Shown: positions 17,090-26,027 of the stretch, piece after piece
Layout: each line of letters opens with the position of its first letter
Numbering within the stretch: position 1 is the first letter of the stretch
Assembly: GCA_000004985.1 (NCBI GenBank)
Contig: GG738849.1
Source: Naegleria gruberi
Taxonomy: Eukaryota
Strand: one strand, 5' to 3'
DNA length: 64,000 nt
The notes under the pieces: generated by a model
What the model was told of the DNA's origin: nothing
Database searches by the model: none
The model's input: the letters and a program-made list of their open reading frames with translations, nothing else
Program-made: the position numbers and the translations under genes

Positions 17090-18457
17090 ATGCCAAGATA
17101 CCTTGTTCGTTTCTTTAATGACTATGCTGCTTTCCGATTGCCAGACTTGGAGTGTTCTGCACACTCCTTTTCGATACCATTGAGTCATTGTGGAAAATTG
17201 GAAGATGATGAAGTTTTTTATTTTGTTGATTATCCTTCGGAAGAGGATGCCAAGAAGGCAGTTTCAAGATCTGTGCTGATACAAGGTATTTATGAAGTGT
17301 GGGGAAGTGGTAGTTCTGCTGAGGAATGTATTGATCAAACAGGAAAATATTGTACTGAGAATGCCCAACATGTGTCTTCTATTTTACATGATTCATCGTC
17401 ATATTGTATCACTGTTGAAAATTATGGTTGTAGATGGACTAAAAAACAAAAAATTGATTTGATGAAAAGTTTTAATACGATACCTTGGAAAGGAAGGGTT
17501 AATTTGGAAACGCCTGACACAGACTTTTTCATTTTCCAAGATTTTAGAAACTCTAGTATTCCTGGATTTAAAAAGGAGGGCAATGAGCAAGAAACTCTAG
17601 TTTTAAAGCAAGTTTACTTTACTAGAAAGCTAGGTGAAGGTTCTAGACATTTAATTACAGATTATGACTTGAAGAAGAGAAAGTATATTGGTACAACAAG
17701 TATGTGTGCCACACTGTCATTCCTCAGTGCTAATTGTGCACTTGCCAATAGAAAATCTCTTATTTATGATCCTTTTGTTGGAACAGGTTCTCTGATTGTT
17801 TCAATTGCACACTATGGAGCTCATGTCATTGGTTCTGATTTGGACATTCGTGTGGTTAGAGGAAAGAATTTCCGTCAAAAGGGTAATATTGAAAGTGAAA
17901 CAAATATTCAATCCAATTTTGATGATTATGGATTAACTAACAAGGCTGGTCTTGAATTGTTGAGAGTTGACTTATCACAAAGCCATGTTTGGAAACCTCA
18001 AAACAAATCTCATGCCCCAAAGCCAATATTCGATGCTATTGTTTGTGATCCTCCTTATGGAAATAGAGAAGGGCCAAGAAAGATTGGTAGAAATAAGCCA
18101 TTGGCTGAGGATAGTTTGGCAAGAGTTAAAGAAAATTATATTGCTGGAACAGTTCCATATGATGTCAAGGAAATGTATGATGACTTGTTAGAATTTGCTG
18201 CTAGATCCATTGTTACTAAGGGAAGAATTGTCATGTGGTTCTTTGTCAATAATGATGAATATTGCGAGGAAATTCTGCCATCTCACAGATGCTTTAAACT
18301 TCTCTACAATAGTATTGATCCTCTCACAAAGAAGTATCACAGAAGATTATTAACATTTGAAAAGTTTTGTGACTATTTTGAACCTCCAACCGCGAGCAAT
18401 AAGCATGATTTAAGTGATGTTGCTGAATCAGAAAATAAGAGAATCAAACAAGAATAA
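17090..18457 (+). CDS. TRM11: tRNA (guanine10-N2)-methyltransferase Trm11 (455 aa)
   Basis: The protein has an N-terminal THUMP-like region and a class-I methyltransferase core with FVGTGS and the IVCDPPYGNREG motif. Confidence 0.85.
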   Translation: MPRYLVRFFNDYAAFRLPDLECSAHSFSIPLSHCGKLEDDEVFYFVDYPSEEDAKKAVSRSVLIQGIYEVWGSGSSAEECIDQTGKYCTENAQHVSSILHDSSSYCITVENYGCRWTKKQKIDLMKSFNTIPWKGRVNLETPDTDFFIFQDFRNSSIPGFKKEGNEQETLVLKQVYFTRKLGEGSRHLITDYDLKKRKYIGTTSMCATLSFLSANCALANRKSLIYDPFVGTGSLIVSIAHYGAHVIGSDLDIRVVRGKNFRQKGNIESETNIQSNFDDYGLTNKAGLELLRVDLSQSHVWKPQNKSHAPKPIFDAIVCDPPYGNREGPRKIGRNKPLAEDSLARVKENYIAGTVPYDVKEMYDDLLEFAARSIVTKGRIVMWFFVNNDEYCEEILPSHRCFKLLYNSIDPLTKKYHRRLLTFEKFCDYFEPPTASNKHDLSDVAESENKRIKQE

Positions 18458-20735: not shown

Positions 20736-23393
20736 ATGGTTTGGTATCTTTAGAGATGCGATCTTGGCACTTTTCAATCATATGAGCACATGGCTTATCT
20801 TCAACACCTTCTGTTTTCTCAATATGAATGGATTGATATTGTTCAAAATATTCAAGGGCCTCATTAAAGTGACCTTGTTTAAAGCTTTCAATTCCCTTAT
20901 TGTAAATTCTCCACTTGTCCACTTGCTCTTTTTGCTGCAATTCATACATCCCTAAGTAATTATGATATTCACAAATGAAAAAACAATATCAACTTACATT
21001 CATCCATGTTAACTTGTTTTGAATCTCCAACCTCATAAATTGGTGTCTTTTCACCACTCTTTGATTTTCTATTGGACATAATTGGTTCAAATGTATTTTC
21101 ATTCACTAATTTCTTCCATGATACCAATCTAGTCGAGTGAACATCAGCAATTTCCTGGTAAACATGATCTGTGATTAAAAAGTTAACATTAAGCTTGGAA
21201 GTTAAACTGATTAAAAATTCAAGATTTTCTTGATAACTGCCTAAAATTGAGAAGGTTTTAACATCTCTAGTACCAACGTTACCAACTTTGTTTTGCTGTG
21301 AAACCATGGCACAAAGGAAAGATATGGATGAAGAACATTTCAATTTTTGTAATTGACCTTGAAGTTGTGTCATGCAGAATAAACCTTTTTCTTCTGCTTT
21401 GGCGCTTTCTGATGTAGCATTAAAACTAAGAATGATGGTACTCTTCTCAAAATTGCCAACCAATGCATTGTTTAAACTTGCATGTCTTTGAATTACTGTG
21501 AAAATTTCAGTAAGCACGACAGTAATATCATGTTCTTTCAATTCATTAAGTAGTTCGTTGAGCCCTTCGAAATATATCATTGCACTCACCACCCTTCTCT
21601 TTTCCAGACCTAATTTAAAAATGGAATTATGAAAACCAGAAGAATGAGCTCCAATCTTGCTATGATGAGATGACTTTGAGAAGGAAAGAGATGTAAACTT
21701 GTTACTCGAATGATGTTTAGATTCTTCGTGTGAACGTGTGTCATTACTATCCAATTTGCTCAACAAGTGAGGTGGAAGGAAACTTCTAAATAATTTCATC
21801 TTTTTCACCATGAACAATACATGTTCTTGGATTTCAGAAACTTCCTTCAATGGTGATGCAACCTTCAAGCCCTCAATTTCGTCCAATTGCATTTCTGAAA
21901 TGAATTCAAATTGGGTCATTAACTTTTTGAAAGGTGTAACAATTCTTGTACTGAACCAAATACCTATCAAAATTGCAGAGATTGTAATAATGACACTCAC
22001 AATAACGGCAACTATCACTGCAATTACAATGGAAGATATGTAGTTCCACTGTGGCACTGCAAAGATTATCATCCAATTCAACAATGTTGGAGTGCACAAT
22101 CTATAGAGTCCAACATAATAAGAACTAACTGTTGTGAATTTGAAAGTTGAACATTTCATAGATTTGAGATCATTCCCTAAAGATTCATAAACAGCAGATC
22201 CAATATCTCTCACTTGTGGAATATCAAAGTTCTTAACAGTCTTTCTTGTTTCCTTTCCACTTTTATCCCATTCAGAAACTGGAATATCAGGGTAGTTGGC
22301 TAATTATTATTGAAACAGTTTAAAACAGGAATATTAAAAAAACATACTTGCAATAATAGCGTCAGTTTTGATCTCAATAACAACTGCCAGTGAGTTCATA
22401 ATATCACTTGTAAATTCAAGCAAGTATTGGGATAGAGAGTGAACTGTCAGATCAATAGCAAAATACCAATCAAAAGTGGATGAGCCAGGAACTGAGTGAA
22501 CACTTACACATGAGAACCAAACCCACAGTGGATATCCTGAATCTGTGTAAGAGTCAGAAAATCCGGTTGAGTTGAGTAAGTTTTGGGCTTGTTCCACTTC
22601 AGTTGAAAGATCAAATGTTGGTTTAATCTTATCCCATGTTGGACCTTTTCTAACACAGCTAGTGTGAGAGGAGTCAAAATCACAAGTTTTGTAATAAGCT
22701 CCTGTTGAATTAATCACAAATAATGATAGATACATTTCAGGTGATTTAGCAGCTCTAGATTGACTGCTAGTTATACCCTTATTACCTCCCAATACATCTC
22801 CAAAATATGAATTGATGAAAAGACCATTTATGTAAGCTTCCTGTGATTTATAGGTCATGAAGGTCTTGTCAATTAACCACTCGTCACGATTATAATAATC
22901 CATATCATTCCACACAGAGTTCCTTACAGTTTCAGTGGCCATTGCTACCTGTTGTTAGGAATTTCCACATGTTTGTCAATTTTACACTAAATTCAAACCG
23001 TCAACAACAAACCTTATTCATGGTAGAGTCTATAAATTCAGTCATACTAGAGAATTGAGACTCCATTAAACTATTACTCACAGATGTAACACTCCCAGCA
23101 AAACTAGATACCCAAACTATGGTTAATAAGATTACAGAAACCACCAAAACAAACAATAATAAGAGTATTAAGCTTGATTTGATGGTTATTTTCTGAGAGG
23201 AACGCTTATTTTGTTGTTTGATTTGAGCACCATCATCTGACGAATTATCATCAATTATTGGTTCCAAAGGAGAAACAGCACTAATAGTAAATCCATCATT
23301 TGATTCGGTAAGGTGATTTTTGGATGTTGGTGTCCTATTTGTTGTATATACAGATACATGTGGGGGCAATGGTGTAACCTTAGAAGCGACCAT
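20725..23393 (-). CDS. Receptor-type membrane protein with divergent class-III nucleotidyl-cyclase homology domain, 4 exons (836 aa)
   Basis: Exons are 23393..23013, 22948..22348, 22299..20998 and 20951..20725, with introns of 64, 48 and 46 nt. Exon 1 has donor AAG|GTTTGT. All frames were verified across the junctions. Layout: an N-terminal region, TM1, an extracellular domain, TM2, then a cyclase-like domain (RRVVSAMIYFEGLNEL...GNVGTRDVKTFSILGSYQENLEF). The canonical metal-binding Asp residues and the GDxY motif are replaced. Confidence 0.6.
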
Positions 23394-23880
23394 ACTAATG
23401 AACGCACACTGTTGTAGAGAGTTTTTTTATACTATTGCTCTGTGATAAGTTGCTGTAACAGTTAAAGAACAGTTCAGCAAGCCTTGTGCGTTTATCTCTG
23501 TCACCACCCGAATCCGAATACCTTAATTTATTATCTTCATTATCAGTCCAATGCTGAAAATAGACTATTGTGCTGTTGCATACAGGCGGGAAAGCCTTAC
23601 AAACTGTACAATCACCCTTATAGGAAGTTTCCTTTATCACTCAAAGCATGGTAGTCACCTGCTAAACAACATCTAAAGTTTTCCCGACCGGGTAGCTGGA
23701 TTTTCACTAGTTCCTCAATCAGCGGGGAAACACCAGTTACAAACCATAAATTCCATATCTCACCCTCTGTCCACATCCTTTAGAGTATTAATACTCTTTA
23801 GAAAAGATACTTATCGAACAAATTATAGAATTTCAACCAAACAAGTATAACTCTAGAAATGATCGTATTGAATCATGTTA

Positions 23881-24933
23881 TTATTGCATGGAACAAGTCT
23901 TCTTTTCACTATTCTTTACAACTTGCTTAAATGAAGGATCATTCCACACACAGATGGACTTGACCATCACTTCGTTCAGCTCCCTGATTCCAGTACCTTT
24001 CAGAGCGCTTGTTTCGGCAAGTAATTTTCCCTGTTCAAAACTTTGAATCTTTTTATGTTTTTTGATAAGTAATTCTCTGGTAAAGATTGGATCATCTCTA
24101 AAATCAATTTTGGTGCAAACAAGTGCAATTGGAGTTGTTGAACAATGATGCCTTAGTTCATTATCCATAGATGATTCTGAACAACAACTGAAACTCAAAA
24201 AGAATAAATCAGTTTGGGGATAAGAAAGTGGACGTAATCTGTGTATGATAGATAAATTCATTAAGTTCCAAAATTTAACAATATTATTGCTTTTTGATAA
24301 ATAAATAACTTCCCTAGGGAAGAAGGATAAATTACAGCACGCAGGGGGAGAAGTTCTTTTGCTTCCTTCCACATCATAGCCAACATTCAACCCAAAACAA
24401 CATCTGTCATTTACTTGAAGTTGTTGGTACATTGAAGAACAAGTGGTAATTGATACTTTGAACACCCTGTTTTTCTCTTGGTCTAATAAAGACTTGTATT
24501 GTTAATAAACTTCTATCTATAATAAATCATGAAAAAAAATCATACAACACCCTCAGTTGGTAGGAGGGGGTTTAAGACGGCCAAAAAGTGTAATTTATCC
24601 TTCTTCCCTTACCTATCAAAATCTTTTGAAAGGTCAATCAAAAATGTTTTGAATATTTTTTAAAATTACTAACCTTCTTGTCCTATGGTATCCCACAATC
24701 CAATACTTAAAGTTTTTCCATCATAGAAAAAATTGTATTGCTATCAAAAATTGTTGGTATATATTCGTGTGGAAAGGAATCGGTAGTTAGAGATATCCAA
24801 AGACATGTTTTACCCACAGCTCCATCACCTTATTTAAAATAATTAATTGGCATTCAATATTGAATAATAAATGATGACACTCACCAACTTGAACAATTTT
24901 AAAAGAATTTGCTGAACTGTTTTTCAAATTGTA
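23881..24933 (-). CDS. Rho-family small GTPase with CAAX box (CSMQ), 4 exons including a 10-nt micro-exon
   Basis: Exons are 24933..24885 (SFKIVQVG), 24828..24674 (GDGAVGKTC...EYIPTIFD...GLWDTIGQE), a micro-exon 24622..24613 (ATTTTGATAG, encoding DFD) and 24238..23881 ([11 protein letters not shown]...TKIDFRDD...CSMQ). Exon 2 has an apparent 1-nt frameshift in a homopolymer (A6 at + 24727..24732). There is no in-frame ATG upstream of exon 1; see the fusion finding. Confidence 0.7.
24317..24608. mobile_element. MITE-like element inside the Rho intron: 20-bp perfect terminal inverted repeats flanking about 252 bp
   Basis: + 24317..24336 (gggaagaaggataaattaca) is the exact reverse complement of + 24589..24608 (tgtaatttatccttcttccc). 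The element lies wholly within the 374-nt intron (24612..24239), which is by far the longest intron in this gene; the others are 51-56 nt. Confidence 0.4.
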
Positions 24934-26027
24934 CTTGAGAATTTCTTCTTTAGGAACGTAGATATCACTTCCACATTGTGACAAACCCTCAATATAACTG
25001 GTTCTATTATGGTGATCTCTGTTGGCTCATTAACTTGCTTCTTTTTGTCAATCTTGTGATAAGTACCACCAAATACAAAGTAATTCATAGCAATACTATC
25101 ATCTTCATTGGTCGCTTGGAATGGAACAGTTGTATGAAAGACGGGTCCAACATCTTGGCTTGTAAAAGTTTGAGAAAGTGAGTGAGTGTGGCTTACATCC
25201 CAACCATTCTTGATATTAATTAAATCAATATAGATACAATCCAAATGGTCAATTCTATCATTACAACCTCCAATGGAGTAAAGTCTTTTACCATTTTCTG
25301 ATTTTTCCAACACCAATGAATGACCAAATCTTGGAGCAAAGCCATCAAGTTCAGAAATTAATACCTCCGATTGACAAGTACCCTCTTTCACATCCAGAGT
25401 AGACAATTTAATCTTTACAAAATCTTTAACAAGATCAGTAGCCGATTTACCACCCAAAATATACCAATCACCAGTTTCTTCATCCAAAACACTAGCATGA
25501 TAATATCTTCCCATAAGTTCAATGCTCAATTCCATCAATTTCCATTCTCTACTCTTCAAATTGAAAATAAACAATTCATTCGATGGGAAACTGTTGTTAT
25601 CATCATACCCACCAAACACAACCAAATAATCACCATAAATAGTTGCTGATTGACCATAACGTGGAGTGATAATCTCATCACCACTAGGCTCCAGTAATCC
25701 CCACTCAAAAGTATCAAATCGATACGACCAAACATCATTATGAAAACCATTTGATTTCCCGCCAAAAATTACCATCTCATCACTACAATCATTCGATTTT
25801 CTTTTCACTAGACACGAGGAGTGGAAGTTACGAGCACTTGGTCCCCTATTATGTATTGTCTTGTTTTCCCACTTTTGTGAGGAAACATCCACTTGAATGA
25901 GATCGTTTACAAGTAGTTCGGAATTGACAAAGCCTCCGAAAAGATAAACTTTATCGTTATGAAAGATACCACTGTGACCAACACGAGAGGTTAATTGACC
26001 GAGGGGCAACGAAGATGTTAATAACAT
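24924..26027 (-). CDS. Kelch-repeat beta-propeller protein (367-aa ORF; possibly the N-terminal part of a Kelch-Rho fusion)
   Basis: ATG at 26027. There are five to six kelch blades (GHSGIFHNDKVYLFGG, VIFGGKSNG..DVWSY, VVFGGYDD..ELFIFN, YILGGKS, YSIGGCND). The last 63 nt (24986..24924) overlap Rho exon 1 on the same strand in another frame. Confidence 0.75.
   Translation of the reverse strand: MLLTSSLPLGQLTSRVGHSGIFHNDKVYLFGGFVNSELLVNDLIQVDVSSQKWENKTIHNRGPSARNFHSSCLVKRKSNDCSDEMVIFGGKSNGFHNDVWSYRFDTFEWGLLEPSGDEIITPRYGQSATIYGDYLVVFGGYDDNNSFPSNELFIFNLKSREWKLMELSIELMGRYYHASVLDEETGDWYILGGKSATDLVKDFVKIKLSTLDVKEGTCQSEVLISELDGFAPRFGHSLVLEKSENGKRLYSIGGCNDRIDHLDCIYIDLINIKNGWDVSHTHSLSQTFTSQDVGPVFHTTVPFQATNEDDSIAMNYFVFGGTYHKIDKKKQVNEPTEITIIEPVILRVCHNVEVISTFLKKKFSSTI

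What the first reader, a model, noticed from the sequence alone, without database searches (positions are those of the whole stretch)
24317..24608. Intronic element with 20-bp perfect terminal inverted repeats (MITE-like) explains the one long intron in the Rho gene
gggaagaaggataaattaca at 24317..24336 and its exact reverse complement at 24589..24608 bracket about 252 bp of non-coding sequence. All other introns in the gene are 51-56 nt, but this one is 374 nt. That is consistent with insertion of a small non-autonomous DNA transposon. Alternatively it is a long hairpin-forming structure adjacent to the micro-exon, which could influence its splicing. The left arm is extended by a 14-bp palindrome, cttccctagggaag.
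Basis: seen in the sequence. Interest (0 to 1): 0.5.

Follow-up and report, generated by a model that had tools for sequence, protein, structure and literature searches.

The report
Inverted-repeat insertion in a Naegleria intron
A 294-base piece of non-coding DNA with perfect 21-base inverted ends sits inside a formerly short intron of a decaying kelch–Rho gene copy in Naegleria gruberi; it looks like a small transposon, but that could not be proven, and it is an ordinary kind of event.

Summary
A perfect inverted repeat, 21 nt rather than 20 (24316-24336 / 24589-24609), encloses 252 nt. It is the longest such repeat in the window and exceeds all 100 shuffles. It lies in a 374-nt intron on the minus strand (24612-24239), after a 10-nt micro-exon.

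The window is Naegleria gruberi. An intact paralogue in the same genome (P0118, DNA in L006) has the same micro-exon and intron positions. Its corresponding intron is 74 nt and has no repeat. Removing the 294-nt unit from the window intron leaves 80 nt that align with that intron. The unit is therefore a lineage-specific insertion into an existing intron, and probably recent.

Calling it a MITE is plausible but unproven:
- No choice of boundaries gives a canonical target-site duplication.
- No second copy was found in the window, JGI metagenomes, IMG/VR or any protein set.
- The N. gruberi genome itself could not be searched.

The inside has no RNA structure, Rfam match or coding similarity. 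The host "Rho gene" is a decayed copy: its F-box region is deleted out of frame, and it carries a 4-nt frameshift. One feature is unexplained: a third copy of AGGGAAG at the junction.

Low interest; a new member of a known kind.

The parts
24589..24609 (-). Proximal arm of the inverted repeat. In gene sense it reads AGGGAAGAAGGATAAATTACA and occupies intron positions +4 to +24, directly after the donor GTA.
24337..24588 (.). 252-nt interior of the insert. GC is 37%. It has no repeats, tRNA or Rfam match, no coding similarity and no significant RNA structure.
24316..24336 (-). Distal arm of the inverted repeat. In gene sense it reads TGTAATTTATCCTTCTTCCCT, a pyrimidine-rich end that together with the next AG forms a cryptic acceptor (CCCTAG|G).
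24309..24315 (-). Third copy of the 7-mer (AGGGAAG in gene sense), immediately after the distal arm. With the arm it forms the 14-nt palindrome at 24309-24322. It is also a 7-bp direct repeat of 24603-24609 (CTTCCCT on the + strand).
24239..24612 (-). The 374-nt intron (GTAAGG...CACAG). It consists of 80 nt of ancestral intron plus the 294-nt insert.
24613..24622 (-). 10-nt micro-exon ATTTTGATAG, encoding part of E-D-F-D-R. It is conserved in the paralogue (ATTATGATAG) and used in the annotated product P0118.
24623..24673 (-). 51-nt intron upstream of the micro-exon.
24674..24828 (-). Rho exon ([10 protein letters not shown]...LWDTIGQE). It carries a 4-nt deletion relative to the paralogue near 24736, which shifts the frame.
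23881..24238 (-). Last Rho exon, ending in the CAAX box CSMQ and a stop codon. It has 21-nt and 27-nt in-frame deletions relative to the paralogue.
24924..26027 (-). Kelch-repeat ORF, identical to P0001 (367 aa). It ends at a stop created by the out-of-frame 397-nt deletion of the F-box linker (junction about 25022-25048).

Best explanation
A 294-bp non-coding DNA segment with perfect 21-bp terminal inverted repeats was inserted into an existing intron of about 80 nt. The host is one paralogue of a kelch/F-box/Rho gene in Naegleria gruberi. The insertion point lies between intron positions +3 and +4, or up to 7 nt further in, because a 7-mer is repeated at the junctions.

The most likely source is a small non-autonomous cut-and-paste DNA transposon (a MITE-like element) of undetermined superfamily.

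The donor consensus GTAAGG survives because the end of the insert (AGGGAAG) is identical to the sequence it displaced.

In the pre-mRNA the two arms can form a 21-bp stem. This loops out the 252-nt interior and brings the donor back to about 80 nt from the acceptor, so the intron could still behave like a short one. The stem also covers donor positions +4 to +6, and the distal arm creates a cryptic acceptor.

The host copy is decaying through an out-of-frame deletion and a frameshift, so the insertion may simply be tolerated.

Shown: the repeat, the insertion relative to the paralogue, the lack of coding or RNA features, and the decay of the host gene.
Inferred: transposon origin, recency, and any effect on splicing.
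For: The repeat:
- Perfect 21-nt arms with a 252-nt spacer.
- Unique in the window and beyond all shuffles.

The insertion:
- Paralogue B (L006) encodes P0118 at 99.7%. It shares the micro-exon and all three intron positions.
- Its intron after the micro-exon is 74 nt.
- A global alignment shows one large extra block in the window (288 + 12 nt) exactly there.
- The reconstructed 80-nt empty intron aligns to the paralogue's intron with score 41, against 27 ± 6.4 for shuffles.
- More distant N. fowleri and N. lovaniensis homologues have 50-nt and 117-nt introns 6 nt away, without the repeat.

Recency (inference):
- dS between the paralogues is 0.17-0.23.
- Zero mismatches in 42 arm positions would have a probability of about 0.02 if the insert were as old as the duplication.

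MITE-like properties:
- 294 bp in length.
- No ORF with any homologue: a six-frame query found no hit at E ≤ 10, and there was no Pfam hit.
- No Rfam family, no tRNA, no tandem repeat.
- The interior is not structured.

Background: DNA transposons exist in N. gruberi (PMC12344493). Repeat content is 5.1% (PMC6125883).
Against: - No canonical target-site duplication. No boundary choice gives both a terminal inverted repeat and a flanking direct repeat. The only direct repeat, the 7-bp CTTCCCT, overlaps one arm.
- No other copy in 64 kb.
- The three 20-mer matches in JGI metagenomes are isolated 20-23-nt matches with no other similarity to the element or the window.
- None in IMG/VR. No translated match anywhere.
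- Recognisable transposon content in N. gruberi is reported as very low: 0.28% (bioRxiv 10.64898/2026.06.24.734286).
- No transposase gene nearby.
- The genome itself could not be searched, so copy number is unknown. This is missing evidence, not evidence of a single copy.
- The comparator is a paralogue, not an orthologue. Loss of the segment from the paralogue is less likely but not excluded.
Confidence: 0.5

Rival explanations
1. The insert is not a transposon. It is filler DNA captured during double-strand-break repair, or produced by a template-switch event. The inverted arms and the 14-nt palindrome were then made by the repair process, through snap-back or hairpin copying of the flank, rather than carried by a mobile element.
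For: - No canonical target-site duplication.
- The outer 7 nt of the arms are identical to the ancestral flank. A perfect palindrome, CTTCCCT|AGGGAAG, sits exactly at one junction, as expected from hairpin opening or snap-back synthesis.
- A third copy of the 7-mer by chance has a probability of about 6e-5 (inference).
- The segment AAGAAGGATAAATTA of the proximal arm weakly resembles the paralogue's AAGAAAAGTTATTA. Part of the arm could therefore be ancestral intron.
- No other copy was found.
Against: - Template switching explains arms, but not 252 nt of new sequence with no similarity anywhere in the 64-kb window.
- From general knowledge of polymerase-theta repair, snap-back inserts are usually tens of bases long and close to their template.
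- A 14-21-nt perfect inverted repeat spaced 252 nt apart is the classic shape of a MITE.
Confidence: 0.25
2. The long intron with the inverted repeat is ancestral to the two paralogues. The intact paralogue lost the 294 nt, for example by replication slippage between the 7-nt direct repeats, helped by the hairpin.
For: - The unit is bounded by 7-bp direct repeats (CTTCCCT at 24309-24315 and 24603-24609). That geometry allows precise deletion.
- The comparator is a paralogue, so polarity is inferred.
Against: - The arms are perfect although paralogue dS is about 0.2.
- Distant Naegleria homologues also have short introns here: 50 and 117 nt.
- The median intron in the genus is short: 80 bp in N. 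lovaniensis (PMC6125883).
- The paralogue's junction sequence does not contain the 7-mer.
Confidence: 0.08
3. The element is a functional RNA feature. It could be a hairpin that regulates inclusion of the micro-exon or yields small RNAs, or an intron-hosted non-coding RNA gene.
For: - A 21-bp stem of -31.9 kcal/mol starts at donor position +4, next to a 10-nt micro-exon.
- The whole-intron fold has z = -2.77.
Against: - It is absent from the intact, presumably functional paralogue.
- The host copy is frame-disrupted.
- The interior is unstructured on both strands.
- No Rfam family even at E ≤ 10.
- A 21-bp stem closing a 252-nt loop is not a microRNA-like precursor.
Confidence: 0.05
4. The element is an Introner, or part of a nested twin intron (stwintron): a mobile sequence that carries or creates its own splice signals.
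For: - GTA + proximal arm reads as a consensus donor (GTAAGG).
- Distal arm + AG reads as a pyrimidine tract plus acceptor (TTATCCTTCTTCCCTAG).
- Both would hold in either orientation, because the ends are inverted repeats.
Against: - The intron existed before the insertion. The paralogue has it at the same position.
- Removing GTAAGG...CCCTAG leaves GATAG|GGAAGT, which does not regenerate a donor. It is therefore not a stwintron (reading).
- The genome-wide Introner screen lists N. gruberi NEG-M without Introners (PMC9860276 supplement).
Confidence: 0.03

Closest known systems
MITEs (miniature inverted-repeat transposable elements; non-autonomous cut-and-paste DNA transposons such as Tourist/PIF-Harbinger or Stowaway/Tc1-mariner derivatives)
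   Same: - Size of 294 bp.
- Perfect terminal inverted repeats.
- No coding capacity.
- Located in an intron.
- Present in one gene copy, with an empty site in its paralogue.
   Different: - No canonical target-site duplication. The nearest readings are TAA/TAG (2 of 3 bases) around 20-nt arms, or a 7-bp repeat that overlaps one arm.
- No second copy demonstrated.
- The superfamily cannot be assigned.
Introners (transposons that create new spliceosomal introns; Gozashti et al. 2022, PMC9860276)
   Same: - A sequence bounded by inverted repeats, lying within an intron.
- Its ends, together with the flanks, resemble a donor and an acceptor.
   Different: - It did not create the intron, which is older than the insert.
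- No family of similar introns is reported for N. gruberi.
Internally symmetrical (stw)introns of Hypoxylaceae (PMC8469720)
   Same: - An intervening sequence with terminal inverted repeats, apparently integrated without flanking tandem duplications. From recall of the abstract, only part of which was shown.
- Sits at the donor of an intron.
   Different: - Those have 45-55-nt repeats, are complete introns or nested introns, and occur as multi-copy families. Also from recall of the abstract.
- Here the inner unit is not an excisable intron that restores the outer donor, and no family is known.
Stem structures that shorten the effective length of long introns in yeast (donor-to-branch-point pairing; from general knowledge, not tested here)
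   Same: A stable stem loops out most of the intron and brings the donor to about 80 nt from the acceptor.
   Different: Here the stem is a by-product of an insertion in a decaying gene copy. There is no conservation or experimental evidence.

Membership tests
MITE / non-autonomous DNA transposon | Terminal inverted repeats | tested here: met
   21-nt perfect arms. Far beyond chance.
MITE / non-autonomous DNA transposon | Target-site duplication directly flanking the inverted repeats | tested here: not met
   Scanning all boundary choices gives no pair with both a terminal inverted repeat and a flanking direct repeat. The only direct repeat, the 7-bp CTTCCCT, overlaps the right arm. The imperfect TAA/TAG reading remains possible.
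MITE / non-autonomous DNA transposon | Multiple dispersed copies in the genome | not testable with these tools
   - No copy in the 64-kb window.
- No related copy in JGI metagenomes or IMG/VR.
- N. gruberi contigs are not retrievable.
MITE / non-autonomous DNA transposon | Small size (under about 800 bp) and no coding capacity | tested here: met
   294 bp. The six-frame query has no protein hit at E ≤ 10. No Pfam hit.
MITE / non-autonomous DNA transposon | Presence/absence at homologous sites (an empty site) | tested here: met
   Paralogue L006 has a 74-nt intron without the unit. The reconstructed 80-nt empty intron aligns to it. Caveat: the comparator is a paralogue, not an allele or orthologue.
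Introner | The element's insertion creates the intron | tested here: not met
   The same intron position exists without the element in the paralogue.
Introner | A family of near-identical introns in many genes | not testable with these tools
   Literature only: N. gruberi NEG-M is scored as lacking Introners in the PMC9860276 supplement.
Stwintron (nested spliceosomal intron) | An internal GT...AG intron whose removal regenerates the outer splice signal | tested here: not met
   Removing GTAAGG...CCCTAG (24612-24314) leaves GATAG|GGAAGT, with no donor at the junction (sequence).
Hairpin RNA or microRNA-like precursor, or a known non-coding RNA | An extended, stable, conserved secondary structure, or a match to a known RNA family | tested here: not met
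   Only the 21-bp terminal stem. Interior z-scores are +0.21 and -0.50. No Rfam hit. Absent from the paralogue.

The most novel reading that the evidence does not exclude
The insert could be one copy of an undescribed Naegleria transposon family whose inverted ends mimic splice signals in either orientation. The 5' end would extend a GTA into the donor GTAAGG. The 3' end would supply a branch-like TGTAAT, a pyrimidine tract, and CCCT next to an AG. Such a family could be tolerated in introns, or even create them, in a lineage where no Introners are known. The 7-nt junction palindrome would then reflect an unusual integration chemistry with a hairpin intermediate.
Probability: 0.05. Interest if true: 0.6.

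Novelty: new member of a known kind. Interest (0 to 1): 0.2.

Why it matters
The significance is modest. The locus documents a recent insertion bounded by inverted repeats in a genome reported to be very poor in transposons. It also shows how a short-intron organism can carry a 374-nt intron. The case has clean polarity, because the intact paralogue keeps the empty site.

It also corrects the local annotation. The two NCBI models, EFC49114 (kelch) and EFC49113 (Rho fragment), are remnants of one decayed kelch/F-box/Rho gene with a conserved 10-nt micro-exon.

If genome-wide copies exist, the 21-nt ends would define a new Naegleria MITE family. The junction palindrome would then say something about how that family integrates.

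Tried and rejected
- Rfam scan of 23000-26000 at E ≤ 10: nothing inside the element.
- tRNA scan and tandem-repeat scan: nothing.
- BLAST of the element against the whole window at word size 7: only self matches. The weak hits at 18447 and 45598 lie in coding sequence and are chance.
- Metagenome scan for the 20-mer: three hits, all isolated 20-23-nt matches with no other similarity to the element or the window. One contig has 48% GC.
- IMG/VR scan: 0 hits.
- Six-frame translation of the element against 5.8 billion proteins: no hit at E ≤ 10.
- Pfam on the element's open frames: none.
- Attempts to fetch N. gruberi DNA by protein look-up (1139-aa window ORF, P0001, P0118, P0119): no record.
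- My first gene model included a 53-nt intron at 24986-24934. I rejected it because the paralogue reads through this stretch as coding, and the frame change comes from a 397-nt deletion.
- I first treated L006 as an orthologue from another species. Corrected: it is the N. gruberi paralogue.
- N. fowleri and N. lovaniensis homologues (L001, L002, L008) and a distant ENA homologue (L007) have different intron positions. They serve only as loose outgroups.
- Literature searches for Naegleria MITEs or Introners found no description of such an element.
- Not run: the exhaustive protein-representative search and structure prediction. The element has no credible protein product.

Full report
**Observation**

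The window holds a perfect inverted repeat of 21 nt: AGGGAAGAAGGATAAATTACA at 24316-24336 and its reverse complement at 24589-24609, with 252 nt between them. This is one base longer than reported.
- The 20-mer occurs nowhere else in the 64-kb window, even with three mismatches. No shuffle produced a match.
- It is the longest perfect inverted repeat with a spacer of 1 kb or less in the window. In 100 block shuffles the longest was 11-17 nt.
- The 14-nt palindrome CTTCCCTAGGGAAG is at 24309-24322.

**Organism and gene**

The kelch ORF at 24924-26027 (minus strand) is identical to a Naegleria gruberi predicted protein, P0001. The window is gene-dense and has 34% GC.

On the minus strand, downstream of the kelch ORF, I read the following:
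- a Rho exon (24933-24885)
- a 56-nt intron
- a second Rho exon (24828-24674)
- a 51-nt intron
- a 10-nt micro-exon, ATTTTGATAG (24622-24613)
- the 374-nt intron (24612-24239)
- a last exon (24238-23881) ending in a CAAX box

The assembled coding sequence is not a multiple of three.

**The comparator**

A search with the last-exon ORF found two proteins:
- P0116, the annotated 126-aa Rho fragment of this locus. It starts at an ATG inside the intron.
- P0117, on the ENA contig L006.

L006 encodes N. gruberi protein P0118 (EFC37603.1, 586 aa, on another scaffold) at 99.7%. L006 is therefore the intact paralogue in the same species, not an orthologue. dS between the two copies is 0.17-0.23 and dN/dS is 0.36-0.39.

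Relative to this paralogue, the window copy has:
- lost 397 nt of the F-box linker, out of frame, which creates the stop at 24924
- a 4-nt deletion in the second Rho exon
- 21-nt and 27-nt in-frame deletions in the last exon

The 'Rho gene' is thus the decaying 3' part of a kelch/F-box/Rho gene. A third, 97.6%-identical copy or allele (P0119, on a 7.5-kb scaffold) still has the F-box. The decay is therefore recent.

**Insertion**

The paralogue has the same micro-exon (ATTATGATAG) and the same three intron positions. Its annotated product uses the micro-exon.
- Its intron after the micro-exon is 74 nt and contains no inverted repeat.
- The global alignment shows small indels in the other introns and one large extra block in the window (288 + 12 nt) at exactly this place.
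- Deleting the 294-nt unit leaves an 80-nt intron, GTAAGGGAAGTTATTTATTTATC...CACAG. It aligns with the paralogue's intron (GTAAG...AAGTTATTAATTTTAT...ATACAG) with score 41, against 27 ± 6.4 for shuffles.
- More distant N. fowleri and N. lovaniensis homologues have 50-nt and 117-nt introns 6 nt away.

I conclude that the intron is old and the 294 nt are an insertion in this copy.

The arms are still perfect. If the insert were as old as the duplication (about 0.1 substitutions per site per lineage), about four mismatches would be expected, and the chance of none would be about 0.02. This recency argument is inference.

**What the insert is**

- No Rfam match at E ≤ 10.
- No tRNA and no tandem repeat.
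- No significant RNA structure in the interior on either strand: z = +0.21 and -0.50.
- No similarity to any other part of the window.
- A query made of all six reading frames found no protein among 5.8 billion at E ≤ 10. Pfam found nothing.

This profile of about 300 bp, non-coding and bounded by perfect inverted repeats is the profile of a MITE. Two defining features are missing.
- No boundary choice gives inverted ends flanked by a direct duplication. The candidates are an imperfect TAA/TAG around 20-nt arms (which would be PIF/Harbinger-like, from general knowledge) or a 7-bp repeat, CTTCCCT, that overlaps one arm.
- No second copy was found in the window, JGI metagenomes or IMG/VR.

The N. 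gruberi genome could not be reached with these tools. Copy number is therefore untested, not shown to be one. For background, published estimates give N. gruberi very little recognisable transposon sequence, though DNA transposons exist.

**Unexplained detail**

In gene sense the layout is:

GTA | AGGGAAG-AAGGATAAATTACA ... TGTAATTTATCCTT-CTTCCCT | AGGGAAG-TTATTT

The outer 7 nt of the arms therefore occur a third time, directly after the distal arm. The chance probability is about 6e-5 (inference). Possible explanations:
- integration next to a sequence resembling the element's own end
- a 7-bp duplication combined with a palindromic (hairpin-type) junction
- repair-associated copying of the flank

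This keeps a non-transposon rival alive: captured DNA with templated inverted duplication.

**Mechanistic consequences (inferred)**

- The proximal arm starts at donor position +4, and the donor GTAAGG is preserved.
- The arms can form a 21-bp stem of -31.9 kcal/mol. This loops out the interior and restores an effective intron length of about 80 nt.
- The stem also covers donor positions +4 to +6.
- The distal arm plus flank creates a cryptic acceptor, TTATCCTTCTTCCCTAG|G (AG at 24315-24314). Using it would retain 75 nt in frame.
- The host copy is already frame-disrupted, so the insertion may be neutral.

**Comparison with known classes**

- It works like, and most resembles, a MITE. Membership is unproven, because the target-site duplication is not met and copy number is untestable.
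- It is not an Introner. The intron predates it, and the published screen lists N. gruberi NEG-M without Introners.
- It is not a stwintron. Removing the inner GT...AG unit does not restore a donor.
- It is not a known RNA family or a microRNA-like hairpin.

**Verdict**

This is an ordinary kind of event in a decaying gene copy. Interest 0.2.

Noticed in passing
window 23881-26027 (minus strand): The two NCBI gene models here, the 367-aa kelch protein EFC49114 (P0001) and the 126-aa Rho fragment EFC49113 (P0116), are remnants of one kelch/F-box/Rho gene. Relative to the intact paralogue P0118, this copy has a 397-nt out-of-frame deletion of the F-box linker, a 4-nt frameshift in a Rho exon, and 21-nt and 27-nt in-frame deletions.
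   Followed up: yes
window 24613-24622; L006 1151-1160: A 10-nt micro-exon (ATTTTGATAG / ATTATGATAG) encodes part of the conserved E-D-[FY]-D-R of switch II. It is shared by both N. gruberi paralogues and used in the annotated P0118 product. N. fowleri and N. lovaniensis homologues lack it and have one intron 6 nt downstream instead.
   Followed up: partly
window 24610-24635 (minus strand): A predicted local hairpin pairs the end of the upstream 51-nt intron with the micro-exon and the donor (ACCU.UUCAAAAGAUUUUGA.UAGGU). It appears partly conserved in the paralogue, by eye. It might matter for recognition of the micro-exon.
   Followed up: no
not in the window: N. gruberi 7,486-bp scaffold encoding EFC35580.1 (P0119): A third copy or allele, 97.6% identical to window 26018-25020, still contains the F-box region that is deleted in the window. 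It is the best place to look for an empty site of the 294-nt insert, but it could not be fetched.
   Followed up: partly
window 24239-24465 (minus strand): 75 stop-free codons run from inside the insert, in frame, into the last exon. The chance of this is roughly 0.3-2%. There was no protein or Pfam similarity, so it is probably chance. It explains why the annotated fragment P0116 starts at an ATG inside the intron.
   Followed up: yes
window 24314-24336 (minus strand): The distal arm plus the flank forms a strong-looking cryptic acceptor (TGTAAT...TTATCCTTCTTCCCTAG|G). Using it would retain 75 nt (25 codons) in frame.
   Followed up: no
window 23455-23480 and 24909-24934: An imperfect 26-nt inverted repeat (81% complementary, 13-nt exact core) brackets the whole Rho remnant. 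About two such cores are expected by chance in the window, so it is probably chance.
   Followed up: partly
L006 1654-3277 versus window 22000-23870: Sequence downstream of the two paralogues shows no similarity at DNA or protein level. The duplication therefore covers little more than the gene itself, or the flanks have been replaced.
   Followed up: partly
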